Sequence record: NC_105825.1
DNA length: 64,000 bases
From: Escherichia phage ECOP18
Direction: 5' to 3' (one strand)
The notes below the pieces were generated by a model. It ran no database searches and was not told where the DNA came from. It was given only the letters and a program-made list of their open reading frames with translations. The translations under genes and the position numbers were made by a program. The first letter of the stretch is position 1. Every line of letters starts with the position of its first letter. Below, in pieces: positions 6,965 to 32,642 of the stretch.

Positions 6965-7051
6965 TGGTGCTGGGCACAGGATTCGAACCTGTAACGGGAT
7001 TACTCCTCCTGATTACAAATCAGGTGCATTCAACCATTCTGCCGACCCAGC
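6965..7051 (-). tRNA. long-variable-arm tRNA, anticodon reads TGT
   Basis: Perfect T-arm and anticodon stem CCTGA/TCAGG; 15-nt variable region; 87 nt. Confidence 0.5.
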
Positions 7052-7216: not shown

Positions 7217-7468
7217 TCAGCCATTAGAGAGTACAGTACTGGTAGTTGGCAATACTACAGATGAAGCAACAGTGTTTAAATGCTTTCTCCAGTCTAGGTT
7301 AAATTGTTTTCGAAACTCTTCATAAGGTTCTTCTGGATAAAAGCTAAAACCTCCTTTCTCATCATTCAGGATAACAGAGCCGTCAGTTTGTTCGTATGCT
7401 CGGTATGTTTCTCCAATAACAATAACTCGTTTTTCGGTACTTTTATTACGAAACTCAAAAACGTGCAT
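7217..7468 (-). CDS. hypothetical protein
   Basis: 83-aa ORF between tRNA genes. Confidence 0.45.
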   Translation of the reverse strand: MHVFEFRNKSTEKRVIVIGETYRAYEQTDGSVILNDEKGGFSFYPEEPYEEFRKQFNLDWRKHLNTVASSVVLPTTSTVLSNG

Positions 7469-7484
7469 AATGTTTCCTTAAAGT

Positions 7485-7560
7485 TGGAGCGGCTAGAGGG
7501 AATCGAACCCTACTCAGCGAGGCTTGGAAGGCCTGCGGCACAACCCGTGTGCTTAACCGC
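7485..7560 (-). tRNA. tRNA-Gly (TCC)
   Basis: Anticodon loop CTTCCAA. Confidence 0.65.
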
Positions 7561-7568
7561 TTATTGTT

Positions 7569-7644
7569 TGGCTGGAGAAGGAGGAATCGAACCTACCATT
7601 AACGGAGTCAAAGGCCGTTGTGCTAACCGTTACACTACTCTCCA
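7569..7644 (-). tRNA. tRNA-Gln (TTG)
   Basis: Anticodon loop CTTTGAC. Confidence 0.6.
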
Positions 7645-7650
7645 ATTATT

Positions 7651-7726
7651 TGGCTGGGATGCCACGGATCGAACGTGGAACCTTCGGAGTCAGAGGCCGA
7701 CGATCTGCCAATTGATCTACATCCCA
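7651..7726 (-). tRNA. tRNA-Gln (CTG)
   Basis: Perfect T-stem and acceptor stem; anticodon loop CTCTGAC. Confidence 0.65.
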
Positions 7727-7738
7727 ATAATTTTTATT

Positions 7739-7933
7739 CTACGGAAAAATTGTTGTTGGCTCAGATTCTTCCAAACGTTTGCCTTCATGATCAACACGAA
7801 TAACGCCGCATCCTTCGCAAATCACAACTGCACCATAACCTTCTTTGACCTCAGCTTCTGTAATCAAACCAGAAAGATCACCAGTATCTTTACCCCACAT
7901 ATCAATGGAGCATTGTTTGCAGAAATCAGCCAT
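7739..7933 (-). CDS. hypothetical zinc-ribbon-like protein
   Basis: CxxC ... CxxC spacing (CKQC, CEGC). Confidence 0.45.
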   Translation of the reverse strand: MADFCKQCSIDMWGKDTGDLSGLITEAEVKEGYGAVVICEGCGVIRVDHEGKRLEESEPTTIFP

Positions 7934-7958
7934 ATTTTATTTCCTATTTAAGTTAATT

Positions 7959-8035
7959 TGGGGTGGCTAGTGAAATTCGAATCCACATAGGCCTGATTCA
8001 CAATCAGGATCATTAACCAATTATGATATAGCCAC
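7959..8035 (-). tRNA. tRNA-His (GTG)
   Basis: Perfect acceptor and anticodon stems; loop TTGTGAA. Confidence 0.75.
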
Positions 8036-8401
8036 AATTGAAAACTCGCAGGGTTAGCGAAACCTTCCTCAATTAGCATGTTCTAGAATACTAATCAAGT
8101 TATCTCCTATTGCACGCAGCTCAAGACGAGTACGAATTTTCAATTGTGGCGGCTCTCAGAAACTCTTCTACTCTAGTCTTAGCAGCTTACTCCCGAACGC
8201 ATGTCGGGGAAGTCTTACTAAGCGCATCAAATAGCACCGTTACACTTTGAGCCATTGGTGTATTAAGAAGCAGAAGGACTTGAACCTTCACGAGATAGAC
8301 CATTTATCTCAGCCGCTTTATGAGGTATGTTGCAGGGAGTGGATGTTCCCTATAAACCTTTTAGGCAGCCCCGTCTACCGATTCCGGCATACTTCAGGAT
8401 T

Positions 8402-8496
8402 TGGAGGTAGGTAAGGGGATCGAACCCTTACACCGTATCACTACGATCAACCGATTTCAAGTCGGAGTCCAGCGCCAGCCATTGGATTGACCTACC
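8402..8496 (-). tRNA. tRNA-Ser (TGA)
   Basis: Type II, 95 nt; anticodon loop CTTGAAA. Confidence 0.7.
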
Positions 8497-8508
8497 ATAT
8501 AAATTGTT

Positions 8509-8599
8509 TGGCGGAAGAGGAGAGATTTGAACTCTCAAGCCGTTTTACCAGTCAGCCACTTTCCAAGCGGTTTTCGTCACCAATTCGATTTGCTCTTCC
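8509..8599 (-). tRNA. long-variable-arm tRNA, anticodon unresolved (possibly Ser GGA)
   Basis: Perfect acceptor stem and T-arm; D-loop AATTGGTGA; anticodon arm non-canonical by hand. Confidence 0.5.
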
Positions 8600-8711
8600 A
8601 ATAACAAGATGATGCCTCTATCACACCAGGCAGTTACGCCTCGCTGGGATTCGAACCCATTAAAACAGCTCAACCGAGATAGTAGGTTTAATTTACTCTG
8701 ACCATCAAATT

Positions 8712-8788
8712 TGGTGCGTGACAAGGGATTCGAACCCTCAAAACCCGACTTCTAAGGACGGTATGTATGCCAATTCCATCAATCACGC
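8712..8788 (-). tRNA. tRNA, anticodon reads TAG
   Basis: Acceptor and T-arm present; anticodon loop CTTAGAA; short variable arm. Confidence 0.5.
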
Positions 8789-8793
8789 GTATT

Positions 8794-8872
8794 TGGTGGA
8801 GAATAACGGAATCGAACCGTTCTGATGTCCTCGGTGCAAGCGAGGTGTCCACTCCATGCAGACCCATTCCCC
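8794..8872 (-). tRNA. tRNA-Ala (TGC)
   Basis: G3-U70 pair; perfect anticodon stem CCTCG/CGAGG, loop CTTGCAC. Confidence 0.7.
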
Positions 8873-9110
8873 AAATTATTTAGTTTACTAAGGCTATTAG
8901 CTCGGCGTAACTACAGCACCTTCGCTTCGAGCGGAAGGAACCGCGTCATCTCGCAAACCCGATACACTATTCAGTTGCCACTGAATCTAGTGGACTAATC
9001 TAGAACTTCTCCCGAATCGTAGGGATCGTGCTTTTTGGCAGCCAGTCCTAGGTCGAACTAATACCTTAGTGAACTATGATGAGGATTTCTCCTCATCAAT
9101 TTATATAAAT

Positions 9111-9139
9111 ATTATAACAAGAAATTAAGCATTAAGCAA
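9111..9139 (-). promoter_or_regulatory. sigma70-type early promoter reading into the tRNA cluster
   Basis: TTGCTT-N17-TATAAT; no ORF immediately downstream. Confidence 0.55.
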
Positions 9140-9157
9140 CTGCGTTTTTCTTGAAAT

Positions 9158-9236
9158 TGGTAGATCGCCTGGGACTCGAACCCAGAACCTTCCGATTAAA
9201 AGTCGGATGCTACTAAACCTATTGAGCTAGCGATCT
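9158..9236 (-). tRNA. tRNA-Lys (TTT)
   Basis: Perfect acceptor, T and anticodon stems; loop CTTTTAA. Confidence 0.75.
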
Positions 9237-9237
9237 A

Positions 9238-9405
9238 TTAGTAACCATTATACACTTCTTTAATAGAGTGGACTTTTAAGTAAGGGTGATTAGTACTAAA
9301 CTCTACCATTACTTCATCCCAATTTTTACCATAATGAGCGAGTAAGGATTTTGATGTATTCTTACCTAACCGTTTGTCACTTACTACTAATCGAAATACT
9401 TTCAT
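9238..9405 (-). CDS. hypothetical small protein (55 aa)
   Basis: Hand-translated ORF below the ORF-track cutoff, with GAGGA RBS upstream of ATG. Confidence 0.35.
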   Translation of the reverse strand: MKVFRLVVSDKRLGKNTSKSLLAHYGKNWDEVMVEFSTNHPYLKVHSIKEVYNGY

Positions 9406-9792: not shown

Positions 9793-9824
9793 TTTGCTTT
9801 CCTTCTCAACACTTTATAAGGTAT

Positions 9825-9853
9825 ATTATACAGAGAATTAAGCATAATAGCAA
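9825..9853 (-). promoter_or_regulatory. sigma70-type early promoter
   Basis: TTGCTA-N17-TATAAT upstream of lipoprotein gene. Confidence 0.6.
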
Positions 9854-10002
9854 ATGAATTTTTAATAAATTTACTTATTGTGTAGGCCACCTGGAGGCTA
9901 CCAACCCCACGGCTGACAAAGAAGTTTGCGAGACCTCTCTTAAGTGCCAGAATAGACCCGCCGATCTATCGGAACCTACATAATAAGTAAACTTTATAGT
10001 GT

Positions 10003-10123
10003 CATTCTAGACAGGACTCGAACCTGTTATCACTTGTGCGGACTTACGAGAACCATTCTTTCACTCGAATCGAACGAGCTTCTGCCCTCGCCAAGCTGGT
10101 TTCCCCATCAACCACGCTAGAAT
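10003..10123 (-). ncRNA. aberrant tRNA-like element (121 nt)
   Basis: Perfect 7-bp end pairing (ATTCTAG/CTAGAAT) and canonical T-arm, but no 7-nt anticodon loop and an extra internal hairpin. Confidence 0.3.
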
Positions 10124-10287
10124 GTTTGATTGTTTTCAGTGCAAGAGTCCGAGTCTTGGACACGACCGCTTCGCAAGTACATAGGCAGCTTATCATGAGT
10201 CAGCACTTCCGAATTGCTAGCTCCGTGTTCTGCACTGAAATTTTATTAGTTTAACCGTAAAGTATTATCTACTTCACCATTAATTGT

Positions 10288-10993: not shown

Positions 10994-11076
10994 TGGCGGG
11001 CCGTGTAGGATTCGAACCTACGTTGTCTTTCGACATGGATTAACAGTCCACCGCCAAACCGCTTGGCTAACGACCC
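10994..11076 (-). tRNA. tRNA-Asn (GTT)
   Basis: Anticodon loop CTGTTAA; 13-nt variable region. Confidence 0.6.
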
Positions 11077-12879: not shown

Positions 12880-12956
12880 TGGTAGGGGTGGTGGGATTCG
12901 AACCCACAAAACCTGAATTTTAAGTCCAGTACCTATGCCAATTCGATTACACCCCC
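12880..12956 (-). tRNA. tRNA, anticodon reads TAA (Leu-decoding) with short variable arm
   Basis: Perfect T-arm; anticodon loop CTTAAAA. Confidence 0.55.
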
Positions 12957-13461: not shown

Positions 13462-13539
13462 TGGTGGCTCCCCGAGGATTCGAACCTACGTACCTTCCGG
13501 TTATGAGCCGGGTGCTCATACCATATGAGCTTGAGAACC
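13462..13539 (-). tRNA. tRNA-Met/Ile2 (CAT)
   Basis: Anticodon arm CCGG/CCGG with loop CTCATAA. Confidence 0.55.
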
Positions 13540-17244: not shown

Positions 17245-18041
17245 TTTAAGTATTTTTAAGAACTCTCGTAAAAACTCTTAAAAATACAGACGATACCGGG
17301 AGAGTCATAAGTCTCACTCATTAAGTATTTCAAGACAAAATACAGTAACGTCTATTATTTTCCAGTTTAAGTCAGGGTGACTTAGTGGTTATGTCCTGCG
17401 GTATATTGAGGACTCGGTTAGGCTTGGGGTCATGACTTCCCACCTTTTGCTGCTACTCAACAGGAGTTATCGCGAATTACCTGTGCTATTGTGCACCATT
17501 AGTGACATCTCTCATGTCAGCATTTCCCACTTTGTGGATAGCTTGAAAAACTACTCCGATATGGAGAAAGAACTTCACTATCCTAGAATACCTTCTAAAG
17601 TTCTTCTTTAGCCTGGACATAGTTAAATCGTAATAAAACTATTCAGCAGACTGGTTGGTTAGTCTGGAACCAACTACCGCGTGGTTTAGGCAGTGCGCAA
17701 CTAACCTCGGAAGCTTTTATGTTAAAAGCATCAGTTATCCAGTTCTTACCGACCGTAGGATTCGAACCTACATCTTCCACCAGTTACGGCTTGATAATAC
17801 CAATTATACTAGGACGGCAGTGTTACTACATAAGTGATTTCCACACCCCACTATTTATAAATCAGAGAAGAGTTTAGGGGAGAGGTTTCAGACGCCTCAT
17901 TTTACACGTTCTAGCCACTAACCGGGATTGCCGCCCCCTGTGTACTAGTTTTACAACTAACCCACCGACTCTATTCAATGCGCTCCGGTTGGGATTCTGC
18001 ACTCAGCGTAATCGGCTCGCTGTTCCCTAATTTATGAATAT

Positions 18042-29082: not shown

Positions 29083-29280
29083 TTAAGTTCTCAGCAGAAT
29101 ATCTATCGAGGTACTTAGTTCATTATAATTGAAGGGCCGATTTGGATTTGAGGTTACAATTTTCCACGCTAGGGTAGTCTTAGGACTTTCTTCCCCTTCC
29201 TTACGTGTAATCATATTAGCAGCACTCAGTGAAGTACGATGTATTTTAGTTTTACGGTGTAGATGTACAACGTCTCCCAT
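29083..29280 (-). CDS. hypothetical protein
   Basis: Start trimmed to MGDVV immediately after phoH stop. Confidence 0.35.
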   Translation of the reverse strand: MGDVVHLHRKTKIHRTSLSAANMITRKEGEESPKTTLAWKIVTSNPNRPFNYNELSTSIDILLRT

Positions 29281-29281
29281 A

Positions 29282-30043
29282 TTACACCTTCCCCATGTCT
29301 TTAAAAATATCGTAGAATGCTTTAGACTCAGCAGAACGAACGTTATCAATCAATTCGATCATTGAGAATGGGGCATTTTCGTATTTCTCATAGACTTCCA
29401 TAAGTAGTGCTAGACCTGAGTCACATTTAATGTCTTTCTGAGCTATATCTCCGCAGATAATTAAACGGCAGTCTTGTCCTACACGAGTTAGGAGACAAAT
29501 CATTGCCTCAACGGAAATATTCTGAGCTTCATCGACAATTACATAGGAGTTGTTGAAAGTTCTGCCACGAGCATGTTCTACAGCCAAAAATTTAATTTTC
29601 TGACGTTCGACATATCCCTTATAGGCATGATCACCGATGGCCCATTTCATACCATCAGCTATTGGCTCTAACCAAGGCTCTAGCTTTTCCGCTAGATCAC
29701 CAGGAAGCATACCAAGAGACTTACCTAGAGGTTCATTAGGACGTACGAGGATCACTTGCTCAATATCTGAGTGAATGTCTACGAGTTCCTGAGCTGCAAG
29801 AACAGACGGGATAAAGGTTTTACCAGTACCTGGCTCACCGATACCCACAGTCACTGTGTTGTTCTTGATCATATTGATATATGATTTTTGCTCGCGGTTT
29901 TTACCTACTAGGGATTTAGCAACTGGGTTAGCGTAATCATTAGAAAAATCAGCCTGAATTACGTTATTCTCATATTTGTTGCCACGCTTTCTTGAACCAT
30001 TGCGGTTCTCTCTTTTTTGACGTGCTTTTCCCATAAATAACAC
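29282..30043 (-). CDS. phoH: PhoH-like ATPase
   Basis: Walker A GEPGTGKTF and PhoH-like layout. Confidence 0.7.
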   Translation of the reverse strand: MLFMGKARQKRENRNGSRKRGNKYENNVIQADFSNDYANPVAKSLVGKNREQKSYINMIKNNTVTVGIGEPGTGKTFIPSVLAAQELVDIHSDIEQVILVRPNEPLGKSLGMLPGDLAEKLEPWLEPIADGMKWAIGDHAYKGYVERQKIKFLAVEHARGRTFNNSYVIVDEAQNISVEAMICLLTRVGQDCRLIICGDIAQKDIKCDSGLALLMEVYEKYENAPFSMIELIDNVRSAESKAFYDIFKDMGKV

Positions 30044-30327
30044 TCCTATAGTGTACTTCGCTAACAGAGGATCAACAAAAAGATCTTGTTTATCAACTTA
30101 CAAATATATTATACCAATATATACAGTAAAAAGCAACTACAATTTTAAATAAGCCTATGATATTGCATTTAAATAAAAAATTTGCTTGCTTTTAACGTGA
30201 GATGTGTGATACTAGATAATCATTTTATATCGCGTGCACGAGTGCGTGATTATACAATTTTTAATAGAGATTGGCAAATAAAATTTTTTGACTCAGATCA
30301 TGTTACAGAACTTTATAGTAAAATATT

Positions 30328-30357
30328 GTTGACATCCGCCCTCGAATGAGTTATAAT
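30328..30357 (+). promoter_or_regulatory. sigma70 promoter for nrdD
   Basis: TTGACA-N18-TATAAT, 30 nt upstream of nrdD. Confidence 0.65.
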
Positions 30358-30386
30358 AGTAGTCTTAGTTAGAGAAGGAGAGTATA

Positions 30387-32261
30387 ATGAATCGCAATGA
30401 AGAACTAAAGTATAAAGAAATGCAGGCGTTAATTAGAAACTGCAAAGAGATTATCGAAGGGTCAGCAGATGAAGAGCTGCTGTTTAATAATGCCAATAAA
30501 CCCTCAGAACGTTTCCCTACACAAAGGGATATGCTTGCAGGTGAATTGAGTAAGTATCTGATTCTAGAAGAAATGCCCATTCAGATTCGAAATGCTCATA
30601 TGATTGGAGATATTCATTTCCATGATGCTGACTATGCTGCATTAGGTATGACTAACTGTTGTCTGGTAGCTCTGGAAGATATGTTGAAGAATGGTATGAA
30701 GGTTGGTAATGCTGAAATTAGCACTCCAAACTCTATCACTACTGCGGCAGCTATTACAGCTCAGATTATCACTCAGGTTAGCTCCCATCAGTATGGTGGT
30801 ACTTCTGTAGATCGCCTTGATGAAGTATTAGCCCCTTATGTTCGTAAATCCTATGACAAAAATCATGCGTTTGCAAAACGTTGGACTAAGGATGAAGCCA
30901 AAGCATCCGTAATGGCTACGGAGATGACTGAAAAAGAAGTCTATGATGCTTGTCAGGGTCTAGAGTATGAAATCAATACGATGTTCAACTCTAATGGTCA
31001 GAGTCCATTTATTACCTTTGGTTTTGGTCTAGGGACTTCTTGGGAAGCACGTCTAGTACAGAAAGCAATACTGAAAGTACGTATGGATGGCTTAGGCATC
31101 AATAAACGTACAGCTATCTTTCCGAAACTGGTGTTTGTTCTGCGTGATGGCGTAAATATGAAGCCAGGAGATGTTAATTATGACGTCAAGAAGTTAGCTA
31201 TGAAATGTACTGCTGAACGTATGTATCCAGATTATATCAGCTATGATAAGGTTGTAGAAGTTACTGGGGACTATAAAGTTTCTATGGGCTGCCGTTCATT
31301 CCTAGCTGCTACAGAAGATGGTGAAACTGCCGGTCGTAATAACTTAGGTGTTGTTTCTGTAAACTTGCCTAGAATTGCTATCGAAGCTGAAGGAAATATT
31401 GACCTATTCTTTGATTTGCTTGAGCTACGTGTAGATACAGCATTAAAAGCGTTGGAGTGGAGAGTTGATCGCTTAAAATACATTCAAGCTAAAGCTGCAC
31501 CCATCCTCTATATGTCAGGAGCCTTTGGGTTACGTTTGGGGCCTGATGAATATGTATTCGATCATTTCTATAACCGTGCTTCTGTATCTCTAGGGTATAT
31601 TGGTTGCCATGAAATGCTACAGTTCATGTTTGGCAAAGATGTAGACACAATGTCCGAGACCTGCATCAAGTTTGTTCAGCGTGTATTGCAGTACATGCGG
31701 GATAGAGTCGATCAGAAGAAGGAAGAAACTAAGTTAGGTTATAGCCTGTATGCTACACCATCAGAATCCCTATGTGACCGTTTTTGTCGTCTAGACCGTG
31801 AATACTTCCCGGAGCATGAAGATATTCTGTCCAAAGGATACTACACTAACTCTCACCACCTTGATGTAGAACGTAAAGTTGCTCCCAATGTGAAATTTGA
31901 TTATGAATCTAACTTTACGCCGATTGCTTCTGGTGGATGTATTTCCTATGTAGAACTACCGGATATGAAACGATTCCCAGATGCACTGGAATGGGTTATT
32001 AATTATGCTGCTAGTAAGGTTCATTACTTCGGTATTAATACTCCAGTGGATTCTTGTGGTAAATGTGGATTCTTAGGTGAAACAATAGCATCCGAAGATG
32101 GGTTTAAGTGCCCTATCTGTGGTAATCATGACCCTGAAACTCTTGAAGTAACTCGTCGAGTTTGTGGGTATCTTGGAAATCCGGGTGCTCGTCCATTTAA
32201 CCCCGGCAAACAGCACGAGGTTATGGGCAGAGTGAAACATCAGGATATTCGAGCTAAATAA
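30387..32261 (+). CDS. nrdD: anaerobic ribonucleotide reductase (class III)
   Basis: C-terminal glycyl-radical motif RRVCGYLG and CGKCG zinc site; TTGACA/TATAAT promoter. Confidence 0.85.
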   Translation: MNRNEELKYKEMQALIRNCKEIIEGSADEELLFNNANKPSERFPTQRDMLAGELSKYLILEEMPIQIRNAHMIGDIHFHDADYAALGMTNCCLVALEDMLKNGMKVGNAEISTPNSITTAAAITAQIITQVSSHQYGGTSVDRLDEVLAPYVRKSYDKNHAFAKRWTKDEAKASVMATEMTEKEVYDACQGLEYEINTMFNSNGQSPFITFGFGLGTSWEARLVQKAILKVRMDGLGINKRTAIFPKLVFVLRDGVNMKPGDVNYDVKKLAMKCTAERMYPDYISYDKVVEVTGDYKVSMGCRSFLAATEDGETAGRNNLGVVSVNLPRIAIEAEGNIDLFFDLLELRVDTALKALEWRVDRLKYIQAKAAPILYMSGAFGLRLGPDEYVFDHFYNRASVSLGYIGCHEMLQFMFGKDVDTMSETCIKFVQRVLQYMRDRVDQKKEETKLGYSLYATPSESLCDRFCRLDREYFPEHEDILSKGYYTNSHHLDVERKVAPNVKFDYESNFTPIASGGCISYVELPDMKRFPDALEWVINYAASKVHYFGINTPVDSCGKCGFLGETIASEDGFKCPICGNHDPETLEVTRRVCGYLGNPGARPFNPGKQHEVMGRVKHQDIRAK

Positions 32262-32303
32262 GCTAATCAGCCGGGTTGCTAGTCGACCTGGCTTTTATTT
32301 TAT

Positions 32304-32332
32304 TTGCTTTCAGCCAAAAATTTATATATAAT
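32304..32332 (+). promoter_or_regulatory. sigma70-type early promoter
   Basis: TTGCTT-N17-TATAAT. Confidence 0.6.
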
Positions 32333-32360
32333 AGATTTATAAATTTGAGAGGAGAAAGCT

Positions 32361-32642
32361 ATGAGCGAGTTGCTTCCTAAAGTAGATGTCTCCCATCTTG
32401 GAGAGCCTAGTGAAGAACGTAAGGCTCTAGATTGGTTGGGTGGATTTGATTATCGTCGTGTTGTTGCAACATGGAATGATAAGAAAGTTAAGAAGTTTCG
32501 GGTACATTATGTAGGTAAAGACAAGTGGCTCTGGATTGATTATGAAGAATCGAAGGGATCTACTAAGGCTGTGAAAATTTATCGTATGTATGGGTATTAT
32601 TATGCCCACTGTGATAAGAATGAATTTACAGTACAGAACTAA
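32361..32642 (+). CDS. hypothetical protein
   Basis: 93-aa ORF behind consensus promoter and GAGGAG RBS. Confidence 0.55.
   Translation: MSELLPKVDVSHLGEPSEERKALDWLGGFDYRRVVATWNDKKVKKFRVHYVGKDKWLWIDYEESKGSTKAVKIYRMYGYYYAHCDKNEFTVQN

What the first reader, a model, noticed from the sequence alone, without database searches (positions are those of the whole stretch)
8040..8400. ~360-nt ORF-free gap in the tRNA cluster with orphan tRNA-like hairpins
A perfect T-arm-like hairpin (8273-8289, GAAGG/CCTTC) has no pairing acceptor partner, and a 6-bp stem with a 7-nt loop lies at 8292-8310. Similar orphan pieces occur at 8633-8711 and 8880-9110. These may be decayed tRNAs or other stable RNAs.
Basis: seen in the sequence. 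Interest (0 to 1): 0.45.

Follow-up and report, generated by a model that had tools for sequence, protein, structure and literature searches.

The report
Three known T5-type stable RNA genes
The apparently empty 360-base gap between two tRNA genes of this T5-like phage holds three small structured RNA genes already annotated in phage T5 (RNA1, RNAI, RNAIII); one is a leucine-tRNA look-alike whose anticodon loop is replaced by a long hairpin, and what they do is still unknown.

Summary
The window is the tRNA region of a T5-like phage, with genes on the minus strand. The gap 8036-8401 corresponds base for base to three misc_RNA genes annotated in phage T5. These are RNAIII (8142..8037), RNAI (8253..8147) and RNA1 (8398..8254). 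RefSeq labels RNA1 a "tRNA-like stable RNA with unknown functions".

8273-8289 is its T arm and 8292-8310 is its variable-arm hairpin. The T arm is not orphan: a 6-7 bp acceptor stem (8390-8396 with 8266-8272) closes the molecule.

Twenty-five distinct homologues support the cloverleaf: 95% of cells are paired and 11 pairs show compensatory changes. A model of RNA1 hits tRNA-Leu genes next best. In T5 itself the layout is C32-[40 nt]-UUAAAA, which is a tRNA-Leu(UAA) with an insertion. RNAI and RNAIII are closed rods with weaker support. No ORF shows a coding signature.

Verdict: already known, function unknown. Side result: similar insertion-bearing tRNA-Leu-like genes occur in T4-like Klebsiella phages and in uncultured phage tRNA arrays.

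The parts
8037..8142 (-). RNAIII homologue (106 nt). A closed multi-branch RNA with a 12-bp terminal helix (8131-8142 with 8039-8050), extendable to about 15 bp through the flanking CAAUUG.
   Evidence: 99% identical to the T5 rnaIII misc_RNA. Sense-strand fold z = -2.9, antisense z = -0.15. Variants of this slot with bodies of about 28, 63, 106 and 133 nt are all closed by a 9-15 bp terminal helix.
8143..8146 (-). CAAU spacer between RNAI and RNAIII
8147..8253 (-). RNAI homologue (107 nt). An elongated rod closed by GGCUC (8249-8253) paired with GAGCC (8151-8155), followed by an encoded GCCA 3' end (8147-8150). The central hairpin is at 8192-8208.
   Evidence: 92% identical to the T5 rnaI misc_RNA. 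RNAalifold on 20 sequences gives 30 pairs that are rarely broken, with one compensatory pair. A second interior variant in Epseptimavirus keeps the same ends and the rod shape, and its hairpin covaries.
8254..8398 (-). RNA1 homologue, with the extent as annotated in T5. The tRNA-like core is 8265-8396 and 8254-8265 is the 3' trailer.
   Evidence: T5 rna1 misc_RNA, noted as 'tRNA-like stable RNA with unknown functions'. Rfam tRNA 25.2 bits. ARAGORN -i. Covariation.
8390..8396 (-). RNA1 acceptor stem, 5' strand. It pairs with 8266-8272; the outermost pair is U.U.
   Evidence: Four of the pairs show compensatory changes (GAAGUA/UGCUUC, GGAAUA/UGUUCC, AUGCCG/CGGGGU).
8371..8387 (-). RNA1 D arm: a 3-bp stem CCG/CGG with the 11-nt loop GAAUCGGUAGA, the tRNA-Leu type
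8317..8364 (-). 48-nt extension in place of the 7-nt anticodon loop. It contains a 4-bp helix and a 6-bp apical hairpin (8333-8352) with the invariant loop ACAUCCAC (8339-8346). It is flanked by the 5-bp anticodon-type stem 8365-8369 with 8312-8316.
   Evidence: Helices 3-5 carry 6 compensatory pairs, and the loops are invariant in 25 sequences.
8292..8310 (-). RNA1 variable-arm hairpin: 6 bp with the invariant loop AAUGGUC.
   Evidence: 100% paired, with one A-U to U-A switch.
8273..8289 (-). RNA1 T arm GAAGG-UUCAAGU-CCUUC.
   Evidence: 100% paired in 25 sequences. It aligns to the T arm of Rfam's tRNA model.
8266..8272 (-). RNA1 acceptor stem, 3' strand
7959..8035 (-). tRNA-His(GUG), the downstream boundary of the RNA block
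8402..8496 (-). tRNA-Ser(UGA), the upstream boundary. ARAGORN at its default settings misses it.
9075..9158 (-). Homologue of T5 early promoter P13b, the nearest annotated promoter upstream of the block
   Evidence: 95% identical to the annotated T5 P13b. No consensus promoter was found on the minus strand inside 7300-9400.

Best explanation
The gap is not empty. It carries three tandem genes for small, highly structured, non-coding RNAs: the homologues of phage T5 RNA1, RNAI and RNAIII.

Shown: sequence identity and synteny with the T5 genes; the RNA1 fold; the descent of RNA1 from tRNA-Leu; the absence of any coding signal.

RNA1 is a class-II tRNA body of the tRNA-Leu type. It has an acceptor stem, a D arm with the GAAUCGGUAGA loop, a long variable-arm hairpin and a UUCAAGU T arm. 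Its anticodon loop carries a structured insertion of 40 nt in T5, equivalent to the 48-nt extension in this window. In T5 itself the loop still reads C32-[40 nt]-UUAAAA, that is, tRNA-Leu(UAA). In this window it has drifted to ...CAUAAA, so the RNA cannot decode.

Inferred: the three RNAs are made as part of the polycistronic tRNA transcript that starts at P13b. They are cut out by the host tRNA-processing enzymes. RNase P would cut at the acceptor-like helices of RNA1 and RNAI and at tRNA-His, and exonucleases would trim back to the helices or to the encoded GCCA. They persist because their 5' and 3' ends are paired.

Most likely mode of action (inference, low confidence): RNA1 folds into a tRNA-like L shape and acts in trans as a non-decoding tRNA-Leu mimic. 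It would bind some tRNA-recognising host or defence factor, with the invariant loops of the extension and variable arm providing the specific contacts.
For: Identity with T5:
- The window aligns to T5 st0 across tRNA-His, RNAIII, RNAI and RNA1.
- BLAST maps the three annotated misc_RNAs at 99%, 92% and 86% identity.

RNA1 fold:
- In 25 distinct sequences from Tequintavirus, Epseptimavirus and Sugarlandvirus, 95.3% of cells are paired against 40-50% in the slid controls.
- 11 pairs show compensatory change against 1-3 in the slid controls, and 0 of 500 shuffles reach the observed score.
- The D loop, T loop, apical loop, variable-arm loop and the A-rich internal loops are invariant while the helices vary.

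tRNA-Leu origin:
- The RNA1 covariance model hits tRNA-Leu of T5, T4 and the window next best, at 38-25 bits.
- Rfam's tRNA model aligns end to end with a 45-nt insert in the anticodon loop.
- ARAGORN -i draws the cloverleaf.
- One GenBank record annotates the homologue as a 134-nt tRNA-Leu(taa).
- T5-type sequences keep C-[40 nt]-UUAAAA.

Not decoding: the nucleotide after C32 is U, G or C in different clades, and the 3' loop residues differ by clade.

Not coding: variable sites show no third-position excess in any ORF, and the stop-free stretches change between clades.

Distribution: RNA1 is present at 80% coverage or more in all 491 matching phage records.

Ends: RNAI has GGCUC/GAGCC plus GCCA. 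All RNAIII-slot variants are closed by a terminal helix.
Against: - There are no expression or end-mapping data for this phage. The ends are taken from the T5 annotation, and I could not read the original T5 papers.
- Support for RNAI and RNAIII is weak: one compensatory pair in RNAI, and in RNAIII some substitutions break predicted pairs.
- RNAIII is replaced by unrelated bodies of about 28, 63 or 133 nt in other phages. This fits a spacer role as well as a trans function.
- The region lies inside deletions that T5 tolerates in the laboratory, for example delta 29191-32442.
- RNA1 has no encoded CCA and has a U.U first pair.
- No target or partner was identified. The complement of the invariant loop is not enriched in the window.
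- Processing by RNase P is inferred from shape only.
Confidence: 0.8

Rival explanations
1. The RNAs are passive cis elements of the tRNA precursor. They act as structured spacers that organise folding and RNase P/RNase E processing of the neighbouring tRNAs. They accumulate only because they are hard to degrade and have no function in trans.
For: All of them are closed by terminal helices that abut tRNA ends. The RNAIII slot tolerates unrelated cargo, down to a body of about 28 nt, as long as the terminal helix with its CAAUUG ends is kept. The interiors of RNAI and RNA2H are swapped as modules between clades. The region is dispensable in laboratory deletion mutants.
Against: In RNA1 the single-stranded loops far from any processing site are invariant across three genera, while the helices change by compensation. 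That pattern points to specific contacts, not to bulk structure. RNA1 is also kept in Klebsiella phages in a different neighbourhood, without RNAI or RNAIII.
Confidence: 0.3
2. RNA1 is a real tRNA gene, tRNA-Leu(UAA), interrupted by a short intron. The intron is removed after transcription to give a decoding tRNA.
For: - ARAGORN -i calls it an intron-containing tRNA, and a GenBank record annotates it as tRNA-Leu(taa).
- T5-type copies keep a perfect C32-[40 nt]-UUAAAA.
- In uncultured phages, perfect tRNA-Leu(UAA) exons with A73-CCA carry 49-62-nt insertions at the same site. In the L221 and L239 loci, default ARAGORN called no uninterrupted tRNA-Leu(UAA).
Against: - In this window and in the Epseptimavirus and Klebsiella clades the loop residues have diverged (UCAUAAA, CGAAAAC) and position 33 varies, so no anticodon is conserved.
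- There is no encoded CCA, and the first acceptor pair is U.U.
- The window has a separate tRNA-Leu(UAA) at 12880-12956.
- The insertion is far too short for a group I intron, Rfam finds no intron family, and it lacks a bulge-helix-bulge motif.
- To my knowledge, no splicing enzyme for such introns is known in E. coli or T5.
- The extension's own loops are invariant.
- T5 annotates a 144-nt stable RNA.
Confidence: 0.05
3. The gap holds decaying tRNA pseudogenes and junk spacer with no selected function.
For: RNA1 is below Rfam's tRNA threshold. Several annotators label relatives 'pseudogene' or 'abnormal tRNA'. The tRNA region is a known deletion hotspot.
Against: Compensatory changes occur in 11 RNA1 pairs and the loops are invariant. 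RNA1 is retained in 491 genomes at full length. RNAIII varies at only 4 of 106 sites among close relatives.
Confidence: 0.05
4. The gap encodes small proteins, as some automatic annotations suggest: plus-strand ORFs 8110-8250, 8247-8414 and 8401-8490, or a minus-strand ORF in relatives.
For: Hypothetical proteins are annotated over the region in vB_EcoS_MM-1 and GreteKellenberger.
Against: - The ORFs are 55 aa or shorter and the plus-strand ORFs start with TTG.
- Variable sites fall evenly on codon positions (5/8/5, 9/10/10, 5/3/6).
- The frames are not kept in the more distant clades.
- One of the annotated ORFs overlaps tRNA-Ser.
- The substitutions are explained by RNA pairing.
Confidence: 0.02

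Closest known systems
Phage T5 stable RNAs RNA1, RNAI and RNAIII (misc_RNA features rna1, rnaI, rnaIII in NC_005859 and AY692264)
   Same: They share the position (tRNA-Ser, RNA1, RNAI, RNAIII, tRNA-His), the strand and the lengths. Identity is 86%, 92% and 99%. These are the same genes.
   Different: This phage lacks the 174-bp ORF T5.063/T5p061 that separates tRNA-Ser from RNA1 in T5. Its RNA1 has lost the UUAAAA loop remnant that T5 keeps.
Phage T4 species 1 and species 2 RNAs (rnaC, rnaD)
   Same: They are small stable RNAs of unknown function encoded in the phage tRNA cluster. rnaC ends in a T arm preceded by a long hairpin.
   Different: There is no sequence or covariance-model similarity: the RNA1 model does not hit rnaC or rnaD. 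rnaC matches tRNA models only at 17.5 bits, E=0.5, and lacks the tRNA-Leu D arm.
tRNA-Leu (class II tRNA), especially tRNA-Leu(UAA)
   Same: RNA1 shares the acceptor, the 3-bp D stem with the 11-nt GAAyyGGUAGA loop, the long variable arm, the UUCAAGU T loop and the 5-bp anticodon stem. tRNA-Leu genes are the best non-self hits of the RNA1 model.
   Different: RNA1 has a 48-nt structured extension instead of a 7-nt anticodon loop and no conserved anticodon. It has no encoded CCA and a U discriminator. It scores below Rfam's gathering threshold.
Bacterial tRNA genes with group I introns in the anticodon loop (for example cyanobacterial tRNA-Leu(UAA))
   Same: The same tRNA species is interrupted in its anticodon loop.
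   Different: The insertion is 40-62 nt, not 200 nt or more. It sits between positions 32 and 33, not 34 and 35 (the group I intron size and position are from general knowledge). There is no group I core and no Rfam hit.
tRNA-mimicking modules of non-coding RNAs (tmRNA tRNA-like domain, bacterial Y-RNA-like YrlA)
   Same: Each has a tRNA-like elbow and acceptor joined to a non-tRNA extension, and none decodes.
   Different: ARAGORN finds no tmRNA and no Rfam family matches. RNA1 keeps a complete D arm and anticodon stem. No Ro or SmpB partner is implied.
125-nt tRNA-Leu-like RNAs of T4-like Klebsiella, Enterobacter and Edwardsiella phages (Marfavirus, Jiaodavirus, Kanagawavirus), mostly unannotated or labelled 'tRNA-OTHER'
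   Same: They share the architecture: a tRNA-Leu body, a 5-bp anticodon stem, an internal loop, a 4-bp helix, an internal loop and a 5-bp apical hairpin with an invariant loop. Seven pairs are compensatory. They lie in the tRNA cluster.
   Different: The extension has a different sequence. The RNA1 model scores them no higher than ordinary tRNA-Leu. They belong to a different phage family.

Membership tests
T5 stable RNAs RNA1 / RNAI / RNAIII | Sequence homology to the annotated T5 genes | tested here: met
   86%, 92% and 99% identity over full length
T5 stable RNAs RNA1 / RNAI / RNAIII | Synteny: between tRNA-Ser(UGA) and tRNA-His on the early-gene strand, downstream of promoter P13b | tested here: met
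T5 stable RNAs RNA1 / RNAI / RNAIII | Accumulation as discrete stable RNAs in infected cells | not testable with these tools
   Known only from the record notes 'stable RNA with unknown functions'
Canonical tRNA (Rfam RF00005) | Cloverleaf with acceptor, D, anticodon and T stems | tested here: met
   For RNA1 only. RNAI and RNAIII have no tRNA match.
Canonical tRNA (Rfam RF00005) | Score at or above the curated gathering threshold (29 bits); detected by ARAGORN at default settings | tested here: not met
   25.2 bits. No hit in the 13-kb scan. Absent from default ARAGORN output.
Canonical tRNA (Rfam RF00005) | 7-nt anticodon loop with U33 and a conserved anticodon | tested here: not met
   A 48-nt extension takes its place, and the position after C32 is U, G or C.
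Canonical tRNA (Rfam RF00005) | 3' CCA end, encoded or added, and aminoacylation | not testable with these tools
   CCA is not encoded in RNA1. RNAI has an encoded GCCA.
tRNA with group I intron | Intron with a group I catalytic core (roughly 140 nt or more; Rfam Intron_gpI) | tested here: not met
   The insertion is 40-48 nt and there is no Rfam hit at E<=10.
tRNA with protein-spliced (bulge-helix-bulge) intron | Two 3-nt bulges on opposite strands around a 4-bp helix, usually at position 37/38 | tested here: not met
   The 4-bp helix is flanked by internal loops of 5/6 and 3/6 nt, and the insertion sits at 32/33.
tmRNA | tRNA-Ala-like domain plus a tag reading frame | tested here: not met
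   ARAGORN -m finds none and there is no Rfam match.
T4 species 1 / species 2 RNAs | Homology to rnaC or rnaD | tested here: not met
   The RNA1 model does not hit T4 rnaC or rnaD at E<=10.
Small protein-coding gene | Conserved reading frame with a third-position excess of substitutions | tested here: not met
Phage tRNA-Leu-type RNAs with an anticodon-loop insertion (a grouping proposed here) | A tRNA-Leu body plus a structured insertion of 40-62 nt directly after position 32 | tested here: met
   T5-type RNA1 and three uncultured families pass the same explicit filter. The T4-like family shares the architecture.

The most novel reading that the evidence does not exclude
RNA1 is one member of a recurrent class of phage RNAs for which I found no description. 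The members are tRNA-Leu(UAA) genes carrying a structured insertion of 40-62 nt between nucleotides 32 and 33 of the anticodon loop. I found them in T5-like phages, T4-like Klebsiella, Enterobacter and Edwardsiella phages, and at least three uncultured phage lineages with large tRNA arrays.

In the uncultured lineages the exons are perfect, including A73-CCA and UUAAAA. That leaves two readings. The insertions could be a new, non-group-I kind of tRNA intron, removed by an unknown nuclease-plus-ligase route, with the enterobacterial copies being derivatives that stopped decoding. Alternatively, the whole class could be non-decoding tRNA-Leu mimics that titrate a tRNA-directed host or defence factor.
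Probability: 0.3. Interest if true: 0.8.

Novelty: already known. Interest (0 to 1): 0.4.

Why it matters
As a finding it is a rediscovery. T5's RNA1, RNAI and RNAIII have been in the public T5 records for about twenty years, labelled as stable RNAs of unknown function.

It still matters for two reasons. First, most T5-like genome records leave this block unannotated or cover it with spurious 'hypothetical proteins'. Second, the T5 tRNA region is now known to carry anti-defence tRNAs: tRNA-Lys against PARIS and tRNA-Tyr against retron Eco7. A conserved tRNA-Leu look-alike that cannot decode is therefore an obvious candidate for a similar role.

The comparison made here gives a concrete fold, an origin (tRNA-Leu(UAA) with an insertion at 32/33) and relatives in other phage families. 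That makes the old question of what these RNAs do testable.

Tried and rejected
1. Metagenome scan with AACATCCACN{24,40}TAAATGGTC. The pattern was too loose, so nearly all 120 rows were chance matches.
2. Two IMG/VR scans with RNA1-specific patterns. They returned only T5-like genomes already represented, and no distant RNA1 relatives.
3. A target for the invariant loop. The complement GAGTGGATGTTC occurs in the window no more often than chance. A 5-nt match to the 16S 3' end, from memory, is within chance expectation.
4. A host origin. RNA1 has no blastn match in 5,426 E. coli genomes.
5. Homology of RNA1 to T4 rnaC or rnaD. This was rejected.
6. Paralogy among the T5 small RNAs (RNA1, RNAI, RNAIII, RNA2H, RNAIV, rna2). 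There was no similarity beyond 7-18-nt chance words.
7. RNAI as a mimic of the type I-E CRISPR repeat. Its central hairpin UUCCCCGA...UCGGGAGUAAG resembles the repeat as I recall it. I rejected the idea because no Rfam CRISPR-DR hit appears, the similarity rests on a 5-bp GC hairpin, and the Epseptimavirus RNAI has a different hairpin.
8. An internal promoter or terminator in the gap. None was found on the minus strand apart from artefacts at the T arm and the RNAIII end.
9. Literature. Eight full-text searches found no paper in the held library that describes the T5 small RNAs or short anticodon-loop insertions in phage tRNAs. The original T5 papers are not in the library.

Full report
**Where we are.** The window is the tRNA region of a T5-like phage (Tequintavirus), with the genes on the minus strand. 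The 1.3 kb around the finding is 99.9% identical to Escherichia phages vB_EcoS_MM-1 and MM-2 and 99.8% identical to T5_ev212. ARAGORN and Rfam find more than 20 tRNAs on the minus strand.

The finding lies between tRNA-His(GUG) at 7959-8035 and tRNA-Ser(UGA) at 8402-8496. ARAGORN misses that tRNA-Ser at default settings. It is found at lower stringency and is annotated in T5_ev212.

**The observation.** The region has only ORFs of 55 aa or less. The statement that the T-arm-like hairpin has no acceptor partner is wrong, as shown below.

**What is annotated there.** The T5 st0 record (AY692264) and the T5 RefSeq record (NC_005859) annotate three misc_RNA genes between tRNA-Ser1 and tRNA-His:
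- rna1, 144 nt, noted as 'tRNA-like stable RNA with unknown functions'
- rnaI, 107 nt, 'stable RNA with unknown functions'
- rnaIII, 106 nt, with the same note

Alignment and BLAST place them in the window as follows:

| RNA | Window coordinates (minus strand) | Identity to T5 |
|---|---|---|
| RNAIII | 8142..8037 | 99% |
| RNAI | 8253..8147 | 92% |
| RNA1 | 8398..8254 | 86% |

A CAAU spacer lies at 8143-8146. The window lacks the small ORF (T5.063) that separates tRNA-Ser from RNA1 in T5.

- 8880-9110 is RNA2H (9063..8892) plus a leader hairpin (9077-9098) and part of promoter P13b (9158..9075).
- 8633-8711 lies inside a 112-nt element discussed under side observations.

**RNA1 is a tRNA-Leu-derived cloverleaf with an extended anticodon arm.** On the minus strand its parts are:
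- an acceptor stem, 8390-8396 with 8266-8272
- a 3-bp D stem with the loop GAAUCGGUAGA
- a 5-bp anticodon-type stem, 8365-8369 with 8312-8316
- a 48-nt extension in place of the anticodon loop, made of a 4-bp helix and a 6-bp hairpin with the loop ACAUCCAC
- a variable-arm hairpin, 8292-8310
- a T arm, 8273-8289

I collected 25 distinct homologues from GenBank, IMG/VR and metagenomes. They span Tequintavirus, Epseptimavirus and the Klebsiella Sugarlandvirus phages. On this alignment:
- 95.3% of cells form standard pairs, against 40-50% when the partners are slid.
- 11 of the 36 pairs show changes on both sides, against 1-3 in the slid controls.
- No shuffle out of 500 reaches the observed covariation score.

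The acceptor stem is entirely different in the Klebsiella phages (AUGCCG/CGGGGU against GAAGUA/UGCUUC) yet still pairs. The single-stranded D loop, T loop, apical loop, variable-arm loop and A-rich internal loops are invariant.

Independent tools agree:
- Rfam's tRNA model aligns end to end at 25.2 bits (E=0.0038, threshold 29), with a 45-nt insert in the anticodon loop and a 19-nt variable arm.
- ARAGORN with introns allowed draws the same cloverleaf. It makes this one intron-type call in the 64-kb window and none on the reversed sequence.
- A covariance model built from the RNA1 alignment finds tRNA-Leu of T5 (38 bits), T4 (37 bits) and the window (32 and 25 bits) as its next-best hits, ahead of tRNA-Ser.
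- One GenBank record annotates the homologue as a 134-nt tRNA-Leu(taa).

In T5-type sequences the layout is anticodon stem, C32, 40 nt, UUAAAA, anticodon stem. That is a tRNA-Leu(UAA) loop split after C32. In the window the 3' residues read UCAUAAA. In Epseptimavirus and the Klebsiella phages they read CGAAAAC. The residue after C32 is U, G or C. RNA1 therefore cannot be a decoding tRNA in most lineages, this one included.

**RNAI and RNAIII.** RNAI folds into a long rod closed by GGCUC/GAGCC and followed by an encoded GCCA. This is an acceptor-like end. Twenty T5-type sequences keep 30 predicted pairs with few breaks, but only one pair is compensatory. Epseptimavirus phages have a different interior with the same ends and shape, and their central hairpin covaries: CCUGG/CCAGG, CUUGG/CCAAG, UCUGG/CCAGA.

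RNAIII folds significantly better than shuffles on the sense strand only (z = -2.9 against -0.15). It is nearly invariant among close relatives. In other phages the same slot holds unrelated bodies of about 28, 63 or 133 nt. All of them are closed by a 9-15 bp terminal helix with CAAUUG at both ends. The evidence for these two is therefore the T5 annotation plus consistent structure, not strong covariation.

**Not coding.** Some automatic annotations place hypothetical proteins here. Among 15 ungapped homologues the variable sites fall evenly on the three codon positions of every candidate ORF. The stop-free stretches are not kept in the more distant clades.

**How it probably works.** The nearest annotated promoter upstream is P13b, and no consensus promoter lies on the minus strand inside 7300-9400. 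I infer that the three RNAs are part of this polycistronic transcript:

RNA2H, tRNA-Ala, tRNA-Leu, the 112-nt element, tRNA-Ser, tRNA-Ser, RNA1, RNAI, RNAIII, tRNA-His.

I also infer that they are released by the tRNA-processing enzymes. The reasons are that RNA1 and RNAI present acceptor-like helices, RNAI begins exactly where the RNA1 trailer ends, and RNAIII ends 1-2 nt upstream of tRNA-His. Paired termini would explain their stability.

The function is unknown. The pattern in RNA1, with invariant loops on covarying helices and retention in 491 genomes, argues for a specific partner. A non-decoding tRNA-Leu mimic acting in trans is my preferred guess. The main rival is a purely cis role as processing spacers, which the variable cargo of the RNAIII slot supports.

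T5 deletion mutants that remove this region are viable. T5 tRNAs from the same region neutralise PARIS and the retron Eco7, which makes an anti-defence role worth testing. T4 has two analogous stable RNAs of unknown role, but they are not detectably related.

**A wider pattern.** I scanned IMG/VR for tRNA-Leu D-loop and T-loop motifs spaced 30-55 nt too far apart. This gave 116 non-T5 candidates, of which ARAGORN -i folds 43 as tRNAs with insertions of 26-67 nt.

On 144 such loci (1.36 Mb) ARAGORN -i intron-type tRNAs, against one on the reversed sequences. The loci were chosen on these motifs, so this count measures specificity, not frequency.

A stricter filter then required:
- C32, an insertion, then UUAAAA
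- a 5-bp anticodon stem
- a T arm
- an acceptor of 6 or more pairs

It recovers T5 RNA1 and ten loci in three unrelated sequence families. These have perfect tRNA-Leu(UAA) exons, A73-CCA, and insertions of 49, 52 or 62 nt at the same 32/33 site. Those examined (L221, L234, L239) lie in tRNA arrays of 15-18 genes. In one family the closing helix of the insertion covaries.

Separately, 64 T4-like Klebsiella, Enterobacter, Edwardsiella and Kosakonia phage records carry a 125-nt tRNA-Leu-like gene. It is mostly unannotated or labelled 'tRNA-OTHER', 'abnormal' or 'pseudogene'. RNAalifold gives it the same architecture as RNA1, with seven compensatory pairs and an invariant apical loop. The RNA1 model scores all of these like ordinary tRNA-Leu, so the resemblance between families lies in the tRNA body and the design, not in the extension sequence.

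I found no description of such short insertions in the literature I could search. This is a lead, not a demonstrated family. The scans were seeded with tRNA-Leu motifs, and nothing is known about expression or splicing.

**Verdict.** The feature is already known as T5 RNA1, RNAI and RNAIII, with function unknown.

Noticed in passing
window 8600-8711 (T-arm-like hairpin at 8645-8659): A 112-nt non-coding element lies between tRNA-Leu(UAG) and tRNA-Ser(GGA). It has a true orphan T-arm (UGGG-UUCGAAU-CCCA) and no acceptor partner. It is 97-100% identical in 23 related loci, including phiR2-01, where the RNA gap as a whole matched at only 76%. In T5 the same slot is filled by the HNH endonuclease gene hegC. 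It has no Rfam match.
   Followed up: partly
window 8892-9063, 9077-9098, 9075-9158: The homologue of T5 RNA2H (172 nt) lies here, preceded by a 9-bp leader hairpin and promoter P13b. RNA2H appears to be closed by a terminal helix of roughly 15 bp. In Epseptimavirus-type relatives two of its internal hairpins are swapped for unrelated ones while the scaffold is kept.
   Followed up: partly
window 9879-9981 and 10000-10124: These are homologues of T5 RNAIV and rna2 (97% identity), downstream of promoter P13a (9798-9872). By eye, rna2 ends in a T arm (GCAGG-UUCGAAU-CCUGU) and has an 8-bp terminal helix, so it looks like another tRNA-like RNA. Neither has an Rfam match.
   Followed up: partly
window 7488-7561, 8402-8496, 8510-8599, 13465-13539, 17747-17818: ARAGORN at default settings misses tRNA genes at these places. 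They are a tRNA-Gly, two tRNA-Ser, and two further Rfam tRNA hits.
   Followed up: partly
window 6965-7051 and 10994-11076: tRNA-Thr(UGU) is 87 nt long with a stem-loop variable arm, and tRNA-Asn(GUU) is 83 nt with a long variable region. Both are unusual for these isotypes, and T5 st0 annotates its tRNA-Thr as 75 nt. The two tRNA-Leu genes are only 77 nt.
   Followed up: no
window 8143-8146 and the ends of RNAIII (8037-8142); loci L005, L018, L021, L024: The slot between RNAI and tRNA-His is bounded by the palindrome CAAUUG on both sides. In different phages it holds unrelated structured inserts of about 28, 63, 106 or 133 nt. This looks like a cassette site.
   Followed up: partly
locus L018 (IMGVR_UViG_2974655256), between RNA1 and RNAI: An extra structured insert of about 120 nt lies between RNA1 and RNAI. 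The window does not have it.
   Followed up: no
loci L006 and L007 (Klebsiella Sugarlandvirus phages): RNA1 is conserved here, but it sits in a different neighbourhood, after tRNA-Ile, tRNA-Met and tRNA-Val. It is flanked by about 200 and 250 nt of other ORF-poor, GC-rich hairpin-forming sequence, with no RNAI or RNAIII.
   Followed up: no
loci L221 (8712-8861), L234 (4433-4572), L239 (1325-1461), L279, L283, L285, L286, L290, L293, L295: Uncultured phage contigs carry perfect tRNA-Leu(UAA) genes (A73-CCA, 7-bp acceptor) interrupted by hairpin-closed insertions of 49-62 nt between C32 and U33. In L221 and L239 no uninterrupted tRNA-Leu(UAA) was called. In one family the insertion ends in GCACCA.
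   Followed up: partly
loci L171, L233, L302-L306 (Klebsiella phage Marfa and 63 other T4-like records): A conserved 125-nt tRNA-Leu-like RNA carries a 49-nt anticodon-arm extension. It lies next to tRNA-Arg(UCU), tRNA-Leu(UAA) and tRNA-Thr, or near gene e.7, which is the neighbourhood of T4 rnaC and rnaD. It is mostly unannotated.
   Followed up: partly
window versus T5 (L003, L157): The window lacks several T5 features of this region: ORF T5.063, tRNA-Val, and the HNH endonuclease genes hegC and hegD.
   Followed up: partly
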